37,457 bases of DNA from Minisyncoccota bacterium (GTDB lineage: Bacteria > Patescibacteriota > Microgenomatia > Levybacterales > UBA12049), in assembly GCA_025449795.1 (NCBI GenBank), contig JANWIQ010000053.1:1-37457 (forward strand), read 5' to 3'. Below, piece after piece: positions 1,876 to 33,081 of the stretch. Numbering within the stretch: the first letter of the stretch is position 1; each line of letters begins with the position of its first letter. The translations under genes were made by a program, and so were the position numbers. Under the pieces are notes generated by a model. The model did no database searches and was not told the origin of the DNA. It worked only from the letters and a program-made list of their open reading frames with translations.

Positions 1876-2724
1876 ATGCAAAAGAATAATGGCCATAAGG
1901 TTAGACATAGTTCCTTTATTGATCTCTCAGATTATGCTAGGCCAATTGCTGTCTGGATAGCATTACAATTAAAAACTACACGTATACAAGTCTATCAAAT
2001 AACACTACTCCATTTTTTTCTAATGGTTATTGCAGCAGCATTAATTGCAGTAGGTGGATTATCCAATATTCTAATTGCCTCTCTTCTTATTCTATTAAAA
2101 AACATTTTCGACGCTGTTGATGGTTCGCTTGCTAGAATTCGCAATCGACCTTCAAGGGTGGGAAGATTTTTGGATAGCAATCTTGATTTCGTAGGGAATT
2201 TATTTCTGTTTTTATCCGTTACGTACGTCCCACTATGGATACGTGTCTTTGGTTTTTTGAGTTTTGTCATTCAAGGGAGTTTTTTTAATTTCTATTATAT
2301 ACTTTTTCGTAATACCAACCATGGAGATACAACAAGTAAAGTTAACGAAGACGATCAAAGTAATTACAGTTATGATAATCGTTTTATTTTAAAGATTTTA
2401 TATTTCTTTTATAAAATCTTTTATAAATGGCAAGATGCATTTGTTTTAATTGCGGATAGAGTTATAGGAAAAAGGGGAAGAACGATACCTGCTGTATTTG
2501 TTTCCTTTTTGAGTGTTAATGGCTTGGGATTTCAATATCTAATTTTTATCTTACTATTGTCGTTGCACCAACAAATAATACTTTTTCTCTGGTTTACTAT
2601 ATTTATGAATATCTATTTAGTAATACTGTTAGCGTATTTTAGATTTTTTATACGATCCTACAGCCAATGCAGGAGAGGCAAAGAATATAGCAAAGTCTCG
2701 AAAGAGTACATCCAGCACATTTAG
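1876..2724 (+). CDS. CDP-alcohol phosphatidyltransferase-family membrane protein
   Basis: 282 aa with multiple hydrophobic helices. Full signature DAVDGSLARIRNRPSRVGRFLDSNLD (D-G-x2-A-R-x8-G-x3-D-x3-D). The ATG directly abuts the upstream stop. The non-hydrophobic C-terminal tail probably reads into the adjacent gene remnant. Confidence 0.8.
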   Translation: MQKNNGHKVRHSSFIDLSDYARPIAVWIALQLKTTRIQVYQITLLHFFLMVIAAALIAVGGLSNILIASLLILLKNIFDAVDGSLARIRNRPSRVGRFLDSNLDFVGNLFLFLSVTYVPLWIRVFGFLSFVIQGSFFNFYYILFRNTNHGDTTSKVNEDDQSNYSYDNRFILKILYFFYKIFYKWQDAFVLIADRVIGKRGRTIPAVFVSFLSVNGLGFQYLIFILLLSLHQQIILFLWFTIFMNIYLVILLAYFRFFIRSYSQCRRGKEYSKVSKEYIQHI

Positions 2725-2737
2725 ATTTGCCGCAATT

Positions 2738-2970
2738 ATGGAACATTTGGTTAAAGCAAGAGCTCATGAAAACCAATATTTCTTTGTCGCAGTCGATAGA
2801 ACAGGCTCAGACCCAAATACTTCTTACTATGGTACAAATATTATTGCCAACCCATATGCTGAGGATGTAGCAAAGCACGAAGGCATATATAGATATGCAG
2901 AAATAACCAAAGATGATATAGTTACCTTGCATAAATTCTTACCTCTGGATGGCAGTTTCAAGAAAGAATA
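2738..2970 (+). pseudogene. C-terminal fragment of a carbon-nitrogen hydrolase (nitrilase superfamily) gene
   Basis: VKARAHENQYFFVAVDRTGSDPNTSYYGTNIIANPYAEDV...YAEITKDDIVTLHKFLP matches only the last ~80 aa of nitrilase-family enzymes (RARAxENQ block). No N-terminal Glu-Lys-Cys catalytic part is present upstream. Confidence 0.6.
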
Positions 2971-3137
2971 TACGAGCGATTTTTCAGGGCGAAAGAGAAA
3001 AAAGAAAGTGACATTCCTGGACTTGGTCTTGGATTATTTATTTCCACCGAAATTGTCAAACAGCATGGGGGCAGCTTTGGGTAAAAAGCATCGAAGGAAA
3101 AGGTTCTACATTTTACTTTAGTTTACCAATTACATAA
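2935..3137 (+). pseudogene. C-terminal fragment of a histidine kinase (HATPase_c G1/G2 boxes), frameshifted
   Basis: Frame 1 reads QERIYERFFRAKEKKESDIPGLGLGLFISTEIVKQHGGSF, then hits a stop. Shifting one base near 3084 continues WVKSIEGKGSTFYFSLPIT*. There are no HisKA or sensor parts upstream. Confidence 0.65.
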
Positions 3138-3425
3138 AGACAGGACAAATGTTAGTCGATAATCTTTCATATCTTTTCTGTGTTAGTGTAGCTATGCGAG
3201 AAAGATCATTGTGCTTGAATTTATCTCCATGGGTGGCGTCCTCCAGGCACCCGGGGCCAGAAGAAGATACCGGAATCCTCTTCCAAGGGAGTGATTGTTA
3301 CGAATTTTAAGCATGCGGGGGAAGCAAAGAGCAAAATAACTATAAGATATAAATGAGCTGAATCTAATTGGCCTCGAATAACCCCCTCTTTACGAAATAA
3401 CATGAGTACGATATAATGGGTTTTC

Positions 3426-12300: not shown

Positions 12301-12394
12301 GGGTCCTGCCGCTCGTAAAACTCGCAGTGCTTACTCCCTGCGCTATACAGCTTGTGGTCGTTGCGCCCCTGTTAGCATTTTACTCGCGTCACCC
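12301..12394 (-). repeat. Divergent (94-nt) member of the structured element family found at 19333 and 21642
   Basis: It shares both termini with the other copies: GGGTCCTGCC at the gene-proximal end and ACTCGCG..CACCC at the distal end. It has its own internal hairpin (CGCAG-GGAGUAAGCA-CUGCG in gene sense). It ends 9 nt upstream of the MFS ATG. Confidence 0.5.
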
Positions 12395-19324: not shown

Positions 19325-19332
19325 ATATCTTC

Positions 19333-19445
19333 GGGGTCCTGCCAATCGCAACTTTTCCCTTCGGTACCCTCAGGGCAAGCCAGTGCTTGCGACCCTTTTT
19401 ATCCTGAGCAAAGTCGAAGGAGAAAAAACTCGCGCCTGTTACCCC
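19333..19445 (-). repeat. 113-nt structured repeat element, copy A, between the ABC ATPase stop and the permease start
   Basis: About 94% identical to 21642-21755 (6 substitutions and 1 indel by hand alignment). It folds as an interrupted rod (see findings). It ends 8 nt upstream of the permease ATG. Confidence 0.8.
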
Positions 19446-19446
19446 T

Positions 19447-20172
19447 TTAATCTGTTGTATGTAGCCGTTTTGCTTTTTTCTGTTTTTTATTTCTATCATC
19501 TGCAATAATTTTTCCGTCTTTCACATGGATGATTCGTTTGCTATGCTCTGCAATGTCTGGCTCGTGAGTGATCATGACAATCGTATGTCCTCTGTTGTTA
19601 ATTTCCTGAAAAATTGCCATAATTTCTTCTGCCTGAGCAGAGGCAATGTTGCCAGTTGGCTCGTCTGCAAGAAGAAGAGCGGGGTTCATGACAAGTGCAC
19701 GGGCTATAGCAACGCGCTGTTGCTGACCGCCTGAAATTTGATTGGACGAGTGAGAGAGTCTTTTTCCCAGTCCCACCATTTCCAAATACTGGCGCGCTTT
19801 TTCTTCTCTTTCTTTTTCCGGCATTCCCCCATAGCGCATAGGGAGCATGACGTTTTGCAGAAGGGTAATGCGAGGCAATAGGTTAAAGGCCTGGAAAATA
19901 AACCCAATTTTTTTATTCCGAATATCTGCAAGTTCGTCATCGGAGAGTTTTTCCACATTTTGCCCGTCCAAGATGTAGGTACCGTTGGTTGGTGTATCTA
20001 ATGCTCCTAAAATATGCATGAGCGTTGACTTTCCACTTCCCGATGGTCCCATGATGGCAACAAATTCACCCTTACTGATAGAAAATGAAACATCGTCCAA
20101 GGCAACGGTTTGCATGGCTTCTGTTTGGTAGATTTTTGAAATATGTGAGATATCAATAGTTATGCTATTCAT
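19447..20172 (-). CDS. ABC transporter ATP-binding protein (MacB/LolD subfamily)
   Basis: Start trimmed to MNSITIDISHISKIY (ATG at 20172). Walker A GPSGSGKST, signature LSGGQQQRVAIARAL, Walker B LLLADEPT, H-loop ITHE. Confidence 0.92.
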   Translation of the reverse strand: MNSITIDISHISKIYQTEAMQTVALDDVSFSISKGEFVAIMGPSGSGKSTLMHILGALDTPTNGTYILDGQNVEKLSDDELADIRNKKIGFIFQAFNLLPRITLLQNVMLPMRYGGMPEKEREEKARQYLEMVGLGKRLSHSSNQISGGQQQRVAIARALVMNPALLLADEPTGNIASAQAEEIMAIFQEINNRGHTIVMITHEPDIAEHSKRIIHVKDGKIIADDRNKKQKKAKRLHTTD

Positions 20173-21631: not shown

Positions 21632-21641
21632 AATTTTTTTC

Positions 21642-21755
21642 GGGGTCCTGCCAACCGCAACTTTTTCCCTTCGGTACACCCAGGGCAAGCCAGTGCTTGC
21701 GACCCTTTTTATCCTGAGCAAAGTCGAAGGAGAAAAAACTCGTGCCTGTCATCCC
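21642..21755 (-). repeat. 114-nt structured repeat element, copy B, between the histidine kinase and the MFP start
   Basis: Near-identical to 19333-19445. It ends 10 nt upstream of the MFP ATG. Confidence 0.8.
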
Positions 21756-21809
21756 TTCTCGTATCCTCTCTATGCACTATAGTTTTACCATCTGAAAAAG
21801 TGCTGAAAG

Positions 21810-30301: not shown

Positions 30302-31276
30302 TCAGGAAGATATGAAAGCCTCCAGAGTTTTGTGCAAAGTAGTAAGCGACGCATCATCCAAGATGCTAACAGTAAAAACCTTCTTCTGTAGTACATTTTC
30401 CATATCTTTTACTTTTTTCTCTGCTTCCTCAGGGGCAATGAGGTCTGTCTTTGTAAGAAGAATTATTTCGGGTTTTTCCAACATAGTTGGACTATATGCG
30501 CCAAGTTCTTTACGTATGGTAGTGTAGGAGTCGATGCTTTGTGTATTAGTACAGTCAATGCAGTGGACAAGAAGCTTGGTTTTTTCGGTATGCCGAAGAA
30601 ATTCTGTGCCAAGCCCTTTCCCTTTGGATGCGCCCTCAATAAGGCCCGGAATGTCTGCGAGTGCAATATTTCCCATCATCCCAATATTTGGTTCAAGCGT
30701 CGTAAAGGGATAATTGCCTATTTTTGGGGTTGCATTCGTGAGTGCTTGTAAGAGGCTACTTTTGCCTGCATTGGGTAATCCAATAAATCCAATATCGGCA
30801 ATGATCCGAAGTTCTAGGTGTAATTCTTTTTCCTCGCCTACTGTCCCCTTCTCTGCATAATGGGGAGCCTGGTCCGTTGCAGTTTTGAATTCATTATTCC
30901 CACGTCCTCCTATGCCTCCCTTAGCAACGAGAATTTTTTTATTTGTTTCTGTTATTTCAAACTGTTCGTGTGTATTGGTATTGGTAACGAGTGTACCAAG
31001 AGGAATTTTTACCACAAGGTCTTTGCCATTTCTGCCAAAAAGATTTTGTCTTCCGCCTTTAATGCCATTTTCCGCAGTAAGACTTTTTTTAAAGCGAAAT
31101 TCTTGCAAACCCAAGATATCGTCAATGCCCTGAAAATACACATTGCCCCCATTGCCGCCATTGCCCCCGTCTGGGCCGCCGCGTGCTGTTTGGGCATTGC
31201 GTCGAAAATGGACTGACCCATTTCCCCCATTTCCAGCTTTCACACTAATAGTCACTGTGTCAACTAACATGTCCAC
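30302..31276 (-). CDS. obg: GTPase Obg/CgtA (short form, no C-terminal extension)
   Basis: 324 aa. Obg-fold Gly-rich N-domain (VKAGNGGNGSVHFRR...GGPDGGNGGNGGNVYF) and G-domain (GLPNAGKSSLL, YPFTTL, DIPGLIEGA, LTKTD). Confidence 0.93.
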   Translation of the reverse strand: MDMLVDTVTISVKAGNGGNGSVHFRRNAQTARGGPDGGNGGNGGNVYFQGIDDILGLQEFRFKKSLTAENGIKGGRQNLFGRNGKDLVVKIPLGTLVTNTNTHEQFEITETNKKILVAKGGIGGRGNNEFKTATDQAPHYAEKGTVGEEKELHLELRIIADIGFIGLPNAGKSSLLQALTNATPKIGNYPFTTLEPNIGMMGNIALADIPGLIEGASKGKGLGTEFLRHTEKTKLLVHCIDCTNTQSIDSYTTIRKELGAYSPTMLEKPEIILLTKTDLIAPEEAEKKVKDMENVLQKKVFTVSILDDASLTTLHKTLEAFISS

Positions 31277-31314: not shown

Positions 31315-31339
31315 AAACGTACACCTCGGGAGTGTACTT
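31315..31339 (+). repeat. Left hairpin repeat flanking the Y1 transposase gene
   Basis: AAACGTACACCTCGGGAGTGTACTT. It contains the hairpin GTACAC-CTCGGGA-GTGTAC. Its reverse complement recurs at 32060-32084 (24/25 identical). Confidence 0.8.
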
Positions 31340-31372
31340 GACAGAGAGAAAAAGTAAGGCAATAATGGTTGT

Positions 31373-32059
31373 ATGCCAGGTAGATTGGTTCCTTTGGTGA
31401 AAGGTGAAATGTATCATGTATTTAACCGGGGCATAAATAAGCAGATCATCTTTACCTCACAAAGAGATTACCGGAGAGTACTTGAAGTACTTGAATTTTA
31501 TTCCTATAAGAAGCCTCGCCTAAGTTACTCCAAATATTTACTATTGCATCCTGAAAGCCAACAATTATTTTTTGAAGAATTACGAGAAAGTGGCGAAAAG
31601 ATAGTTGAAATAATTTCTTACTGTTTTATGCCTAACCATTTTCATTTGCAGCTTCGTCAATTAGATGAAAATGGTATATCTATATTTTTAGGTAACCTAC
31701 AGAATAGTTACACGCGCTACTTTAATACGAAGTATCACAAAATTGGACCACTACTTCAAGGAAGATTTAAGGCAATTTTAATTGAAAATATGTTTCAGTT
31801 ACTTCATGTTTCTCGATATATTCATCTCAATCCTTACTCCTCAGGTATTTGCCAAACAGCGGAAGATCTTTTGAAGTATCCTTGGTCTTCCTTGGGGGAA
31901 TATATTGCAGATAGCAATACTACCTCGCTCTGCACAAAAAGGGATGTTCTTTCAGAATTTAATGCATCAAGTTATAAGGATTTTGTTTTAGATCAAGCAG
32001 ACTATCAAAGAGAATTAGACCAAATAAAACACGTGTTGCTTGAAGATGAAGATTTTTGA
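31373..32059 (+). CDS. Y1 (HUH) transposase, IS200-like / RAYT family
   Basis: 228 aa. YHVFNRGINKQIIF, HUH motif CFMPNHFHLQL, catalytic-Tyr block VSRYIHLNPYSSGI, and YPWSSLGEY. This is the typical Y1_Tnp/RAYT pattern. Confidence 0.85.
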   Translation: MPGRLVPLVKGEMYHVFNRGINKQIIFTSQRDYRRVLEVLEFYSYKKPRLSYSKYLLLHPESQQLFFEELRESGEKIVEIISYCFMPNHFHLQLRQLDENGISIFLGNLQNSYTRYFNTKYHKIGPLLQGRFKAILIENMFQLLHVSRYIHLNPYSSGICQTAEDLLKYPWSSLGEYIADSNTTSLCTKRDVLSEFNASSYKDFVLDQADYQRELDQIKHVLLEDEDF

Positions 32060-32084
32060 AAGTACACTCCCGAGGTGTATGTTT
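32060..32084 (-). repeat. Right hairpin repeat (inverted copy) flanking the Y1 transposase gene
   Basis: AAGTACACTCCCGAGGTGTATGTTT is the reverse complement of 31315-31339 with one mismatch. Confidence 0.8.
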
Positions 32085-32127: not shown

Positions 32128-33081
32128 ATGAGACTGCCTTCTGCGATATATTTTTTAATTCTTTTTTTGTTGGTAGTACTGGGCTGTTTTGTTGCATGGC
32201 TTGTGCAACCTTTTTCTTCCCCTGCAATTACCAAAGTCTCATCCCCACTCCCCGATGCGATGACAAGGTTTGTGAATGGGCAGGTAACAAGCCTTGATGT
32301 GTGGTTTCCCAATCCCTCATCCAACACCAAGGCTTTTCGATTGAGCGCAAAATCTGCTTTTTCTTATGACCTTACCACAAATACGGTTCTTTTTGCCAAA
32401 AATCCTTCACAACAGCTTCCGATGGCATCTATTACCAAAATCATGACTGCGATTGTTGCGCTGGAGCACCCGCAGCAAAGCTATGGGGTAACGCAACAAG
32501 ATCTTGTTGGGGAAGATAGTATGGGACTTGCTGTAGGGGAAAAACTTACGCTTTCCGAGCTTTTGTACGGTCTCATACTCCACTCAGGGAATGATGCAGC
32601 AGAGACACTTGCTTCCAATTTCCCCGGTGGGAGAGATGCTTTTATTGTCGCAATGAATGAAAAGGCATTATCTTTGGGGCTATCCCATACGCACTTTACC
32701 AATCCGACAGGTCTTGAAGGAGATGGCAAGCAGTATACAACTGCAGCAGATCTTATTGTCATAACGCGCTACGGGCTTGTGCACTTCCCTCTTTTTGCAA
32801 CTGTTGTTGCAACCTTTGATTACACCATTCCCGCAACCAGTACTCACGCCGCATATTATTTAGAGAATGAGACCAATCTTCTCACAAGCTACCCTGGAGT
32901 AAAAGGCGTGAAGACAGGGTACACCCCAGAGGCAGGACTGTGTCTGGTTACTTATTTAGAGTATGGCGGTCACCAGGTGCTTGCGGTTGTTTTGGGAAGT
33001 GACAATCGAAGAGGGGAAATGATAGATATTCTTGATTATTCACTGGAGCGTTTAGGGATTACTCCGCCCACTCATGGATAG
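32128..33081 (+). CDS. D-alanyl-D-alanine carboxypeptidase (peptidase S11, PBP5/6-like), membrane anchored
   Basis: 317 aa. N-terminal TM. SxxK (ASITKIM), SxN (HSGND) and KTG (VKTGYT) motifs. Confidence 0.88.
   Translation: MRLPSAIYFLILFLLVVLGCFVAWLVQPFSSPAITKVSSPLPDAMTRFVNGQVTSLDVWFPNPSSNTKAFRLSAKSAFSYDLTTNTVLFAKNPSQQLPMASITKIMTAIVALEHPQQSYGVTQQDLVGEDSMGLAVGEKLTLSELLYGLILHSGNDAAETLASNFPGGRDAFIVAMNEKALSLGLSHTHFTNPTGLEGDGKQYTTAADLIVITRYGLVHFPLFATVVATFDYTIPATSTHAAYYLENETNLLTSYPGVKGVKTGYTPEAGLCLVTYLEYGGHQVLAVVLGSDNRRGEMIDILDYSLERLGITPPTHG

What the first reader, a model, noticed from the sequence alone, without database searches (positions are those of the whole stretch)
31315..32084. RAYT/IS200-like Y1 transposase bracketed by inverted copies of a 25-nt hairpin sequence
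The 228-aa protein has the HUH (NHFHL) and catalytic Tyr (RYIHLNP) blocks of Y1 transposases. Upstream, AAACGTACACCTCGGGAGTGTACTT (31315-31339) recurs as its reverse complement right after the stop codon (32060-32084, 24/25 identical). It contains a GTACAC-N7-GTGTAC hairpin. This is the architecture of a RAYT with flanking REPs, or of IS200/IS605 subterminal hairpins. The unit is wedged between obg and a PBP gene, both housekeeping. Its hairpin differs in sequence from the 94-114-nt elements in the efflux operons, so a link between the two is untested rather than shown.
Basis: partly seen in the sequence, partly recalled or inferred. Interest (0 to 1): 0.6.

Follow-up and report, generated by a model that had tools for sequence, protein, structure and literature searches.

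The report
Hairpin-flanked RAYT-like nuclease gene cassette
A 770-bp cassette carrying one gene for a hairpin-cutting (RAYT-class, HUH/tyrosine) single-strand-DNA nuclease, framed by two inverted copies of its own short hairpin, was inserted between two housekeeping genes of a tiny uncultured (CPR) bacterium; this kind of element is already published, so it is ordinary.

Summary
ORF 31373-32059 encodes a 228-aa Y1 HUH protein (H89, H91, Y149). It is bracketed by 25-nt inverted repeats at 31315-31339 and 32060-32084 that match 24/25, with none expected by chance.

The protein's motifs (NHFH, YIHLNP, WSS; 228 aa) fit published TnpA-Y1 subclass 2.1, which equals RAYT Group 1 and TIRYT. Its predicted fold is closest to E. 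coli RAYT (PDB 4ER8). It does not fit IS200 transposases or the classical REP-associated RAYT.

The unit is an insertion. Four metagenomic loci from three relatives, plus one reference genome, keep the same gene order (two show all four genes GDPD-obg-PBP-TPK) with an empty 72-185-nt obg|PBP spacer.

The 852-kb genome holds seven intact paralogs, 33-57% identical. Each has its own flanking hairpin elements, and six of the seven have one to seven loose copies elsewhere. One loose copy sits in frame inside cysS. This gene's own hairpin has only two loose copies.

In two other genera, a unit 92-98% identical ends exactly at the outer hairpin feet. The cassette with its ends therefore moves as a whole. 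No genome examined holds near-identical copies, so it does not behave like a proliferating IS.

Verdict: a TIRtron/REPtron-type cassette in a CPR lineage. It is a new member of a known kind and of modest interest.

The parts
31315..31339 (+). Left end: 25-nt inverted repeat AAACGTACACCTCGGGAGTGTACTT with the hairpin GTACAC-CTCGGGA-GTGTAC
   Evidence: It is homologous to the distal GTACACC-loop-GGTGTAT hairpin of the nearest relatives' units. DNA fold -3.8 kcal/mol.
31338..31366 (+). Promoter-like site TTGACA-17-AATAAT for the nuclease gene. It starts inside the last two bases of the left repeat.
   Evidence: 11 of 12 consensus positions. Across the family, 42 of 102 units have TTGACA at -70..-15, against 2-4 in controls.
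31373..32059 (+). 228-aa Y1 HUH nuclease gene (RAYT class, subclass 2.1-like). HuH is H89/H91 (31637-31645), the catalytic Tyr is Y149 (31817-31819), and WSS is at aa 171-173.
   Evidence: (invariant columns).
32060..32084 (-). Right end: inverted copy of the 25-nt repeat (24/25), directly after the stop codon
   Evidence: DNA fold -2.4 kcal/mol. No terminator-like T-run.
30302..31276 (-). obg (left neighbour, outside the cassette)
   Evidence: GTP1_OBG in syntenic relatives.
32128..33081 (+). D-Ala-D-Ala carboxypeptidase, Peptidase_S11 (right neighbour, outside the cassette)

Best explanation
Bases 31315-32084 are a self-contained, roughly 770-bp TIRtron/REPtron-type cassette. It holds one gene for a RAYT-class Y1 HUH single-strand-DNA nuclease/transposase, its own promoter, and two inverted copies of the enzyme's cognate hairpin as ends.

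Shown: the cassette is absent from the obg|PBP spacer of every relative found with that gene pair adjacent, so I read it as an insertion in this lineage. It is one of seven old, diverged paralogous cassettes in the genome, each with private ends.

Inferred mechanism, by homology with E. coli TnpA-REP and the IS608/ISDra2 TnpA enzymes. The enzyme binds the hairpin when the DNA is single-stranded, for example on the lagging-strand template. The HuH histidines hold a divalent metal. Tyr149 cuts next to the hairpin and forms a 5'-phosphotyrosine link, and strand transfer excises or re-joins the DNA. This occasionally moves the whole cassette, or a lone end in trans.

Movement is rare. The family behaves as low-copy cassettes under strong purifying selection that are exchanged horizontally, not as a proliferating insertion sequence. 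In this particular copy the gene-proximal 'foot' motifs of the canonical ends are missing and the hairpins are weak, so this copy may move poorly or not at all.
For: Enzyme.
- Pfam Y1_Tnp is above its cut-off.
- The RAYT model is the only NCBIfam hit, E 3e-10.
- H89, H91, Y149, S172 and S173 are invariant in a 27-sequence family alignment that includes six of the genome's seven paralogs; the seventh (C35) clears the Y1_Tnp cut-off with an open frame.
- The family profile's best PDB hit is 4ER8.
- The AF2 model has pLDDT 90.6. Its best Foldseek hit is 4ER8 (E 2.9e-7, TM 0.69 on the target, 184 columns), followed by the IS608 and ISDra2 TnpA structures.
- The motifs NHFH, YIHLNP and WSS and the 228-aa length match Table 1 of PMC6006769 for subclass 2.1.

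Insertion.
- L070 and L071 (the same PBP protein, 81% identical to ours, on two records) have an obg|PBP spacer of 185 nt.
- L072 (PBP 74% identical) has an 82-nt spacer between the PBP gene and a truncated, unannotated upstream ORF.
- L073 (PBP 73% identical) has a 72-nt spacer, and G014 (L041, PBP 62%) a 121-nt spacer.
- L071 and L073 show all four genes GDPD-obg-PBP-TPK; the other loci are cut short and show part of that order.
- None has a gene in the spacer.
- G014 and G010 have no homolog anywhere in their genomes.

The cassette with its ends is the mobile unit.
- L022 and L036 come from two genera. They are 92-98% identical across the gene, about 80 nt upstream and about 50 nt downstream, and about 40% identical outside. 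The breaks fall at the outer hairpin feet.
- Their dS is 0.24.
- The ends are more conserved than synonymous sites. In L023/L038 the upstream 80 nt are 88-92% identical while dS is 1.28.

Gene and hairpin pairing across the family.
- 63 of 102 units score at least 26 for inverted flank-to-flank similarity, against 11 of 510 mismatched controls.
- All seven paralogs in this genome have their own flanking elements, and six of the seven have 1-7 loose copies.
- A loose copy of the C61 paralog's end sits in frame in cysS. It adds about 19 aa that are absent from E. coli and Borrelia CysRS.

Selection: dN/dS is 0.04-0.15.
Against: - No activity or movement was observed directly.
- No near-identical copies exist within G000, G008 or G019.
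- This hairpin has only two loose copies. One of them (C58) differs at 3 of 19 core positions, and I estimate about 0.2 such matches by chance.
- The two flanking hairpins are not thermodynamically better than shuffles.
- This copy lacks the inner-foot motif (G)ACACCTNGGTA that its nearest relatives carry.
- End orientation is not uniform in the family: 29 units are clearly inverted, 34 clearly direct and 23 palindromic. 'Terminal inverted repeat' therefore does not define the family.
- The exact insertion point could not be mapped, because the middle of the spacer has diverged.
- Loss in the relatives, instead of gain here, is less parsimonious but not formally excluded.
Confidence: 0.7

Rival explanations
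1. It is a domesticated, immobile host nuclease. On this reading the gene is kept for a cellular job, such as processing structured single-stranded DNA. The flanking repeats would be only its operator or transcript-end structures, or relics.
For: - Purifying selection is strong, with dN/dS 0.04-0.15.
- Paralogs within a genome are only 33-57% identical and none are recent duplicates.
- The left repeat abuts the gene's promoter, and in 35-42 of 102 family members the inner foot overlaps a TTGACA box. This would suit autoregulation.
- This copy's ends are trimmed and weak.
- Bertels 2017 argue that RAYTs are domesticated.
Against: - The gene is absent from the same junction in all the closest relatives, which keep the same gene order.
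- It is present in 24 of 41 related genomes, at 0-10 copies each.
- A 92-98% identical unit sits in unrelated contexts in two genera, with breaks at the hairpin feet.
- Loose ends are dispersed, including one inside cysS.
- No terminator-like feature was found.
Confidence: 0.2
2. It is an IS200/IS605-type insertion sequence. On this reading it is an autonomous IS whose TnpA uses subterminal hairpins on one strand ('peel and paste').
For: - It has the Y1 HUH fold, and the IS608 and ISDra2 TnpA structures are among the top structural hits.
- It is a single-gene unit with subterminal hairpins.
- 34 of 102 family members have their two flanking elements in direct orientation, as in IS608.
- The cassette inserted into an intergenic spacer.
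Against: - The motifs are class 2 (NHFH, Y---NP) and not class 1.1 (DH[VI]H, Y---Q).
- The protein is 228 aa, against about 150 aa.
- The NCBIfam scan returned only the RAYT model at E <= 1, and no IS200-family model.
- The genome has no TnpB.
- This copy's ends are clearly inverted, scoring 45 against 14 for the direct comparison.
- There are no near-identical copies, whereas IS200 copies average 99% identity within a genome.
Confidence: 0.07
3. The inverted repeat is a chance or purely structural feature, such as an mRNA-stabilising stem or terminator pair, with no relation to the enzyme.
For: The right repeat directly follows the stop codon. Both stems are short.
Against: - No shuffle reproduced the repeat.
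- The same gene-plus-own-hairpin arrangement recurs in 63 of 102 homologous units, against 2% of controls.
- Hairpin sequence tracks protein relatedness.
- There is no T-run.
Confidence: 0.03

Closest known systems
TIRYT / TIRtron (Di Nocera, De Gregorio & Rocco 2013, PMC3733652), equal to TnpA-Y1 subclass 2.1 (Quentin et al. 2018, PMC6006769) and RAYT Group 1 (Bertels et al. 2017, PMC5581495)
   Same: - The signature matches: NH[YF]H, Y[IV]HLNP, an SS tail motif and a length near 238 aa.
- The gene is framed by inverted repeats that are partly self-complementary.
- The loose repeat families are small.
- Several diverged copies share a genome at about 50% identity.
- The taxonomic distribution is patchy.
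   Different: - The ends lack the GGGGWSAS motif reported for many TIRtrons. The family's canonical end here is a hairpin plus a (G)ACACCTNGGTA foot.
- Pfam finds no Bac_DnaA_C or HTH domain in the C-terminal tail.
- The 'W' position reads FK, not FQ or W[EQ].
- This genome has 7 copies and relatives have up to 10, against a published mean of 1.9.
- Quentin et al. reported no REP-like structures for subclass 2.1, whereas these units clearly have them.
- The host is a CPR/Patescibacteria lineage not covered by those surveys.
- Membership rests on motifs, not on a tree with reference sequences.
REPtron: E. coli TnpA-REP (RAYT, subclass 2.2; PDB 4ER8) with flanking REP/BIME sequences
   Same: - It is the closest solved structure and the best profile hit.
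- Both have the Y---NP motif.
- Both genes are flanked by inverted hairpin elements that also occur as loose copies.
- The inferred chemistry, hairpin-guided ssDNA cleavage by HuH plus Tyr, is the same.
   Different: - There is no GT[AG]G tetranucleotide at the hairpin foot.
- The loose copies number 2, not hundreds.
- NCBIfam scores 40 bits, below the cut-off of 80.
- The protein has an extra C-terminal tail.
- The gene is multi-copy.
- The whole cassette appears to be mobile.
IS200/IS605 family (IS608, ISDra2 TnpA)
   Same: - It shares the Y1 HUH fold.
- It is a compact single-gene element with subterminal hairpins.
- It inserted without obvious target duplication.
   Different: - The motifs are class 2 and the protein is longer.
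- This copy's ends are inverted.
- The genome has no TnpB.
- There are no near-identical copies.

Membership tests
Y1 HUH transposase superfamily (Pfam PF01797, TnpA-Y1) | HuH metal-binding motif and a single catalytic Tyr on the following helix | tested here: met
   NHFH is at aa 88-91 and RYIHLNP at 148-154. H89, H91 and Y149 are invariant in 27 sequences.
Y1 HUH transposase superfamily (Pfam PF01797, TnpA-Y1) | Profile score above the curated cut-off, and the fold | tested here: met
   Y1_Tnp scores 27.2 bits against 23. The Foldseek top 19 hits are all Y1 transposases, led by 4ER8 at E 2.9e-7.
Class 2 TnpA-Y1 (RAYT sensu lato, Quentin 2018) | Y motif Y---NP (class 1 has Y---Q) | tested here: met
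   YIHLNP. N153 and P154 are invariant.
Classical RAYT/REPtron (subclasses 2.2, 2.4, 2.5; NCBIfam NF047646) | Equivalog HMM score at or above the cut-off | tested here: not met
   40 bits against a cut-off of 80.
Classical RAYT/REPtron (subclasses 2.2, 2.4, 2.5; NCBIfam NF047646) | Flanking REPs carry a 5' GT[AG]G tetranucleotide at the hairpin foot | tested here: not met
   The foot reads AAAC/GTAC.
Classical RAYT/REPtron (subclasses 2.2, 2.4, 2.5; NCBIfam NF047646) | The cognate hairpin is dispersed in many extragenic copies | tested here: not met
   There are only 2 loose copies, at C12:9904-9928 and C58:4404-4428. The assembly is 85% complete, so a few copies could be missed.
Classical RAYT/REPtron (subclasses 2.2, 2.4, 2.5; NCBIfam NF047646) | Typically one copy per genome | tested here: not met
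   There are seven intact paralogs, 33-57% identical.
TnpA-Y1 subclass 2.1 / TIRYT-TIRtron | Motif signature NH[YF]H, Y[IV]HLNP and an SS tail motif, with median length 238 aa | tested here: met
   NHFH, YIHLNP, WSS (S172 and S173 invariant) and 228 aa.
TnpA-Y1 subclass 2.1 / TIRYT-TIRtron | 'W' motif W[EQ] or FQ | tested here: inconclusive
   The position reads FK (G-x-FKAV, K133 nearly invariant).
TnpA-Y1 subclass 2.1 / TIRYT-TIRtron | C-terminal HTH-like domain (Bac_DnaA_C, HTH_23 or HTH_28) | tested here: not met
   None of the 27 members gave such a Pfam hit at E <= 1. The model shows a short helical tail. Quentin et al. describe the tail of subgroup 2.1.2 as heterogeneous.
TnpA-Y1 subclass 2.1 / TIRYT-TIRtron | Gene flanked by terminal inverted repeats, some of them self-complementary | tested here: met
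   A 25-nt inverted repeat matching 24/25. The inverted comparison scores 45 against 14 for the direct one.
TnpA-Y1 subclass 2.1 / TIRYT-TIRtron | Low identity among copies within a genome (about 49%) | tested here: met
   33-57% protein identity to the C53 copy. Nucleotide identity is at most about 70% in G000, G008 and G019.
TnpA-Y1 subclass 2.1 / TIRYT-TIRtron | Clusters with reference subclass 2.1 sequences in a tree or MCL clustering | not tested
   The reference sequence sets were not available. Supplements were not held as text, or held no sequences.
IS200/IS605 (subclass 1.1) | DH[VI]H and Y[IV]ENQ motifs in a core-only protein of about 150 aa | tested here: not met
   The protein has NHFH and YIHLNP and is 228 aa. 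RAYT is the only NCBIfam hit.
IS200/IS605 (subclass 1.1) | Multiple near-identical copies within a genome | tested here: not met
IS200/IS605 (subclass 1.1) | Frequent tnpB partner | tested here: not met
   PF07282 gave no match in the genome. The neighbours of relatives are housekeeping genes.

The most novel reading that the evidence does not exclude
The CPR-wide branch has more than 5,700 proteins in the database and is present in 24 of the 41 genomes searched (this one and 40 relatives), at up to 10 copies. It may be the main autonomous mobile element of these reduced genomes. On this reading it is a single-gene ssDNA cassette that lies functionally between IS200-type insertion sequences and domesticated RAYT/REP systems.

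Co-resident paralogs would have diversified into orthogonal enzyme-hairpin pairs. Each pair would mobilise only its own ends, and occasionally write them in frame into essential genes such as cysS. This would contradict the published statement that subclass 2.1 has no structured ends.
Probability: 0.35. Interest if true: 0.55.

Novelty: new member of a known kind. Interest (0 to 1): 0.3.

Why it matters
If the reading is right, streamlined CPR genomes, which carry few classical transposons, host a diverse set of small hairpin-guided nuclease cassettes. These cassettes insert between, and occasionally inside, essential genes.

That would matter in three ways:
- It bears on genome plasticity in CPR bacteria.
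- It bears on annotation, because the genes are labelled simply 'transposase' or 'hypothetical'.
- It bears on the open question of what Group 1 / subclass 2.1 RAYT-like enzymes do.

Seven diverged enzyme-hairpin pairs in one 0.85-Mb genome would also be a convenient natural set for testing how Y1 nucleases read hairpin specificity. For this particular locus the result is mostly confirmatory.

Tried and rejected
- **PDB search with the single sequence.** It found nothing relevant. Only the family profile and the fold search did.
- **Link to the 94-119-nt palindromic elements of the efflux operons.** Blastn-short at E <= 0.1 placed none of their matches at any paralog's flanks. Those elements have their own copies on C59, C15 and C32.
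- **Flanking hairpins as intrinsic terminators.** None was predicted.
- **TnpB partner.** None is present in the genome.
- **Defence-system or phage families.** PADLOC and PHROGs gave no hits.
- **Recent intragenomic transposition.** G000, G008 and G019 have no copy pairs above about 70% nucleotide identity. The only 100% match (L162/L164, 67 nt) is a contig-end overlap, probably of one copy.
- **Base-precise mapping of the insertion point against the closest empty site (L070).** Only the coding ends and the PBP promoter region align. The short matches near the repeat ends (CTCTGCC..TTT and AGGAGGGTTTT) are suggestive only.
- **'Terminal inverted repeat' as a family-wide rule.** Rejected. Orientation is split 29 inverted, 34 direct and 23 palindromic.
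- **Reference sequences for a RAYT-group phylogeny.** The supplements were not held or held no sequences. Control genomes return no loci.
Full report
**1. Observation**

ORF 31373-32059 (+) encodes 228 aa. Its NHFHL motif is at residues 88-92 and RYIHLNP at 148-154.

The 25-mer AAACGTACACCTCGGGAGTGTACTT at 31315-31339 recurs as its reverse complement at 32060-32084, with one mismatch. None of 100 shuffles gave two matches. The right arm starts directly after the stop codon.

A promoter-like TTGACA-17-AATAAT (31338-31366) begins in the last two bases of the left arm. No terminator-like site is present.

One qualification: as single-stranded DNA the two flanking hairpins are weak. They fold at -3.8 and -2.4 kcal/mol (z -0.8 and -1.2), no better than shuffles.

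**2. The protein**

- Pfam Y1_Tnp scores above its cut-off, 27.2 against 23 bits.
- The only NCBIfam hit is REP_Tyr_transpos, at 40 bits and below its cut-off of 80. No other NCBIfam model, and so no IS200-family model, appears at E <= 1.
- A 27-sequence family alignment has H89, H91, Y149, N153, P154, S172 and S173 invariant.
- The family profile's best PDB hit is E. coli TnpA-REP, 4ER8, at E 1e-3. ISDra2 TnpA follows.
- An AlphaFold2 model (pLDDT 90.6, pTM 0.86) matches 4ER8 best: E 2.9e-7, TM 0.69 on the target, 184 columns. The IS608 and ISDra2 TnpA structures come next.
- PADLOC and PHROGs gave nothing.

**3. Classification against the literature**

Table 1 of Quentin et al. 2018 (PMC6006769) defines class 2 by Y---NP. 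It defines subclass 2.1, which equals Bertels Group 1, by four features: NH[YF]H, Y[IV]HLNP, an SS motif in the tail, and a median length of 238 aa. It also gives a mean of 1.9 copies per genome at about 49% identity.

This protein has NHFH, YIHLNP and WSS, and is 228 aa. IS200 (subclass 1.1) has DH[VI]H and Y[IV]ENQ in about 150 aa, which does not fit.

Quentin et al. equate subclass 2.1 with the TIRYTs of Di Nocera et al. 2013 (PMC3733652). Those are RAYT-like genes flanked by terminal inverted repeats, some self-complementary, with moderately abundant loose-repeat families.

Three differences stand out:
- No Bac_DnaA_C or HTH Pfam domain appears in the tail of any of the 27 members.
- The 'W' position reads FK.
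- The ends do not carry GGGGWSAS.

I could not build a tree with reference sequences. Membership therefore rests on motifs.

**4. Copies in the genome**

The assembly is 852 kb in 74 contigs, 85.5% complete and 40% GC.

The hairpin core occurs four times. Two are the flanking arms. One is an exact 19-mer at C12:9906-9924. One is a three-mismatch copy at C58:4408-4426.

The two loose copies form stronger, symmetric hairpins (-6.1 and -9.2 kcal/mol). C58 pairs two 'outer' feet and C12 pairs two 'inner' feet. The C58 copy is intergenic.

The gene has seven intact paralogs; the other six are 33-57% identical to the C53 copy. They lie on C53, C21, C72, C61, C35, C57 and C30, and all score above the Y1_Tnp cut-off.

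Each paralog is flanked on both sides by its own hairpin-forming elements. Six of the seven families have 1-7 loose copies, mostly between genes.

One loose copy of the C61 paralog's end (hairpin TAACC-TGGGG-GGTTA, spacer, foot) lies in frame inside cysS at C63:~896-955. It adds about 19 residues that E. coli and Borrelia CysRS lack.

Three of the seven paralogs lie within 450 nt of a contig end, while 8.7% of the genome lies within 500 nt of one.

The genome has no TnpB.

**5. It is an insertion**

In G014, the related reference genome with the closest Obg (66% identical), obg and the PBP gene are divergent neighbours 121 nt apart. The spacer ends align to the window's spacer ends.

Metagenomic contigs with closer PBP orthologs show the same arrangement:

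| Locus | PBP identity | obg-PBP spacer |
|---|---|---|
| L070, L071 (the same PBP protein on two records) | 81% | 185 nt |
| L072 | 74% | 82 nt |
| L073 | 73% | 72 nt |

L071 and L073 show all four genes GDPD-obg-PBP-TPK. L070 and L072 are shorter and show part of that order; in L072 the gene upstream of the PBP gene is truncated and unannotated. None has a gene in the spacer. In the window, the same four genes surround the 770-bp unit.

G010 has an unrelated 204-aa ORF in that spacer. Neither G014 nor G010 has any homolog of the nuclease gene.

The exact insertion point could not be fixed, because the centre of the spacer has diverged.

**6. Family behaviour**

- 24 of the 41 genomes searched (this one plus 40 from the same family or order) carry the gene, at 0-10 copies each. 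Some copies have stop codons or are fragments. None exceeds 57% identity to this copy.
- The protein database holds more than 5,700 homologs. The best is 62% identical, and nearly all are singleton 90% clusters. Source names include Levybacteria, Beckwithbacteria and Gottesmanbacteria.
- A scan of species-representative genomes found at least 560 loci. Most are in Microgenomates-group CPR; some are in Omnitrophota, Elusimicrobia and other phyla.
- Units in L022 and L036, from two genera, are 92-98% identical. This covers the gene, about 80 nt upstream and about 50 nt downstream. Outside it, identity falls to about 40%, and the breaks fall at the outer feet of the hairpins. Their dS is only 0.24. 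I infer recent horizontal movement of the cassette together with its ends.
- dN/dS for six close pairs is 0.04-0.15. In L023/L038 the upstream 80 nt are 88-92% identical although dS is 1.28. The ends are therefore constrained.
- No near-identical copies exist within G000, G008 or G019. This is unlike IS200.

**7. Anatomy of the ends across the family**

Of 102 units with full flanks, 63 score at least 26 for inverted flank-to-flank similarity, against 11 of 510 mismatched controls.

The canonical end is a nested palindrome: foot TACCNAGGTGNC, spacer, a lineage-specific hairpin, spacer, foot GNCACCTNGGTA. The C21 example folds at -19.3 kcal/mol (z -7.5).

Many units keep only the half next to the gene on each side. 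That makes the flanks look inverted. Others keep the whole element on both sides. Orientation is accordingly split: 29 inverted, 34 direct, 23 palindromic and 16 with no repeat.

The upstream inner foot often contains the gene's -35 box. TTGACA lies at -70..-15 in 42 of 102 units, against 2-4 in controls.

The C53 unit is clearly inverted (45 against 14). Its hairpin corresponds to the distal GTACACC-loop-GGTGTAT hairpin of its nearest relatives, P0002 and P0009. It has lost both inner feet. Both arms also share the same stem-weakening base (GGGAG where the C58 loose copy has GGGGG). The two arms therefore derive from each other, and this copy may be impaired.

**8. Mechanism**

Shown:
- a Y1 HUH protein with intact catalytic residues, under purifying selection
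- its own hairpins as ends
- a junction that is empty in all relatives found with the obg-PBP pair adjacent, which I read as insertion in this lineage
- cassette boundaries at the hairpin feet in related units
- loose ends dispersed in the genome, including one inside a gene

Inferred from the E. coli TnpA-REP and IS608/ISDra2 paradigms:
- recognition of the hairpin in single-stranded DNA
- metal binding by the HuH histidines
- cleavage by Y149 with a 5'-phosphotyrosine intermediate, followed by strand transfer
- possible autoregulation through the end that overlaps the promoter

**9. Novelty**

The arrangement is published as TIRtron/REPtron. Earlier notes from this scan report the same family in at least eight other CPR genomes. 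I treated those notes as leads, and my own tests agree with them.

Compared with the papers I read, the new points are modest:
- a CPR host
- structured ends on a subclass 2.1-like enzyme
- seven private enzyme-end pairs in one 0.85-Mb genome
- a clean empty site in the nearest relatives

I rate it a new member of a known kind, with interest 0.3.

Noticed in passing
G000 contig C63:~896-955 (outside the window): A loose copy of the C61 paralog's end element (hairpin TAACC-TGGGG-GGTTA, then AATAGCTT, then TGCACATAGGG) lies in frame inside cysS. It adds about 19 aa (SANLPYVQSYLTPQVKNLQ) between the conserved ...F and DIHGGG blocks. E. coli (1LI5) and Borrelia (3SP1) CysRS lack them.
   Followed up: partly
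L012, L015, L026, L096, L098, L129, L134, L138-L140 (upstream or downstream flanks of family members): The outer arm plus loop of the flanking hairpin is often duplicated in tandem just outside the element, for example AAAGTTTCCACCTTAGAGGT AAAAGTTTCCACCTTAGAGGTGGAA. A tandem repeat of at least 10 nt occurs in 20 of 102 upstream and 12 of 102 downstream flanks, against 2-3 of 102 windows inside the gene. The C53 unit does not show this. It could be a footprint of cutting and rejoining at the hairpin.
   Followed up: partly
C12:9904-9928 and C58:4404-4428 (outside the window): The two loose copies of this gene's hairpin are symmetric versions of the asymmetric flanking repeat. C58 pairs two outer feet (AACATACACC/GGTGTATGTT, a 10-bp stem). 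C12 pairs two inner feet (AAGTACAC/GTGTACTT). These are the shapes expected if the two ends of a cassette were joined across their loops, but with only two examples this is a curiosity.
   Followed up: partly
window 19330-19447, 21639-21757, 12301-12394: The roughly 113-nt palindromic elements in the efflux operons have further copies at C59:14239-14342, C15:4162-4255 and C32:6555-6631, all 97-99% identical. They share no sequence with the flanks of any of the seven Y1 paralogs, so their mobilising enzyme remains unidentified.
   Followed up: partly
L055 (G010) 2540-3150: In one related genome the same obg|PBP spacer holds an unrelated 204-aa ORF with no homolog of the nuclease. This spacer has therefore accepted different insertions in different lineages.
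   Followed up: no
G000 contig C30, about 80-130 nt downstream of the C30 paralog's stop: Four tandem copies of an 11-nt unit (TAATTTAGATCA) lie next to that paralog's downstream end, followed by further short tandem repeats (ATAATAGAGATA, TTTGTAGATTT).
   Followed up: no
G008 contigs C1, C24, C28, C10 (relative): Four of the ten family copies in this relative are cut by contig ends, and two contig ends overlap by 67 identical bases within one copy. Assemblies tend to break at these genes. In G000, three of seven paralogs also lie within 450 nt of a contig end.
   Followed up: partly
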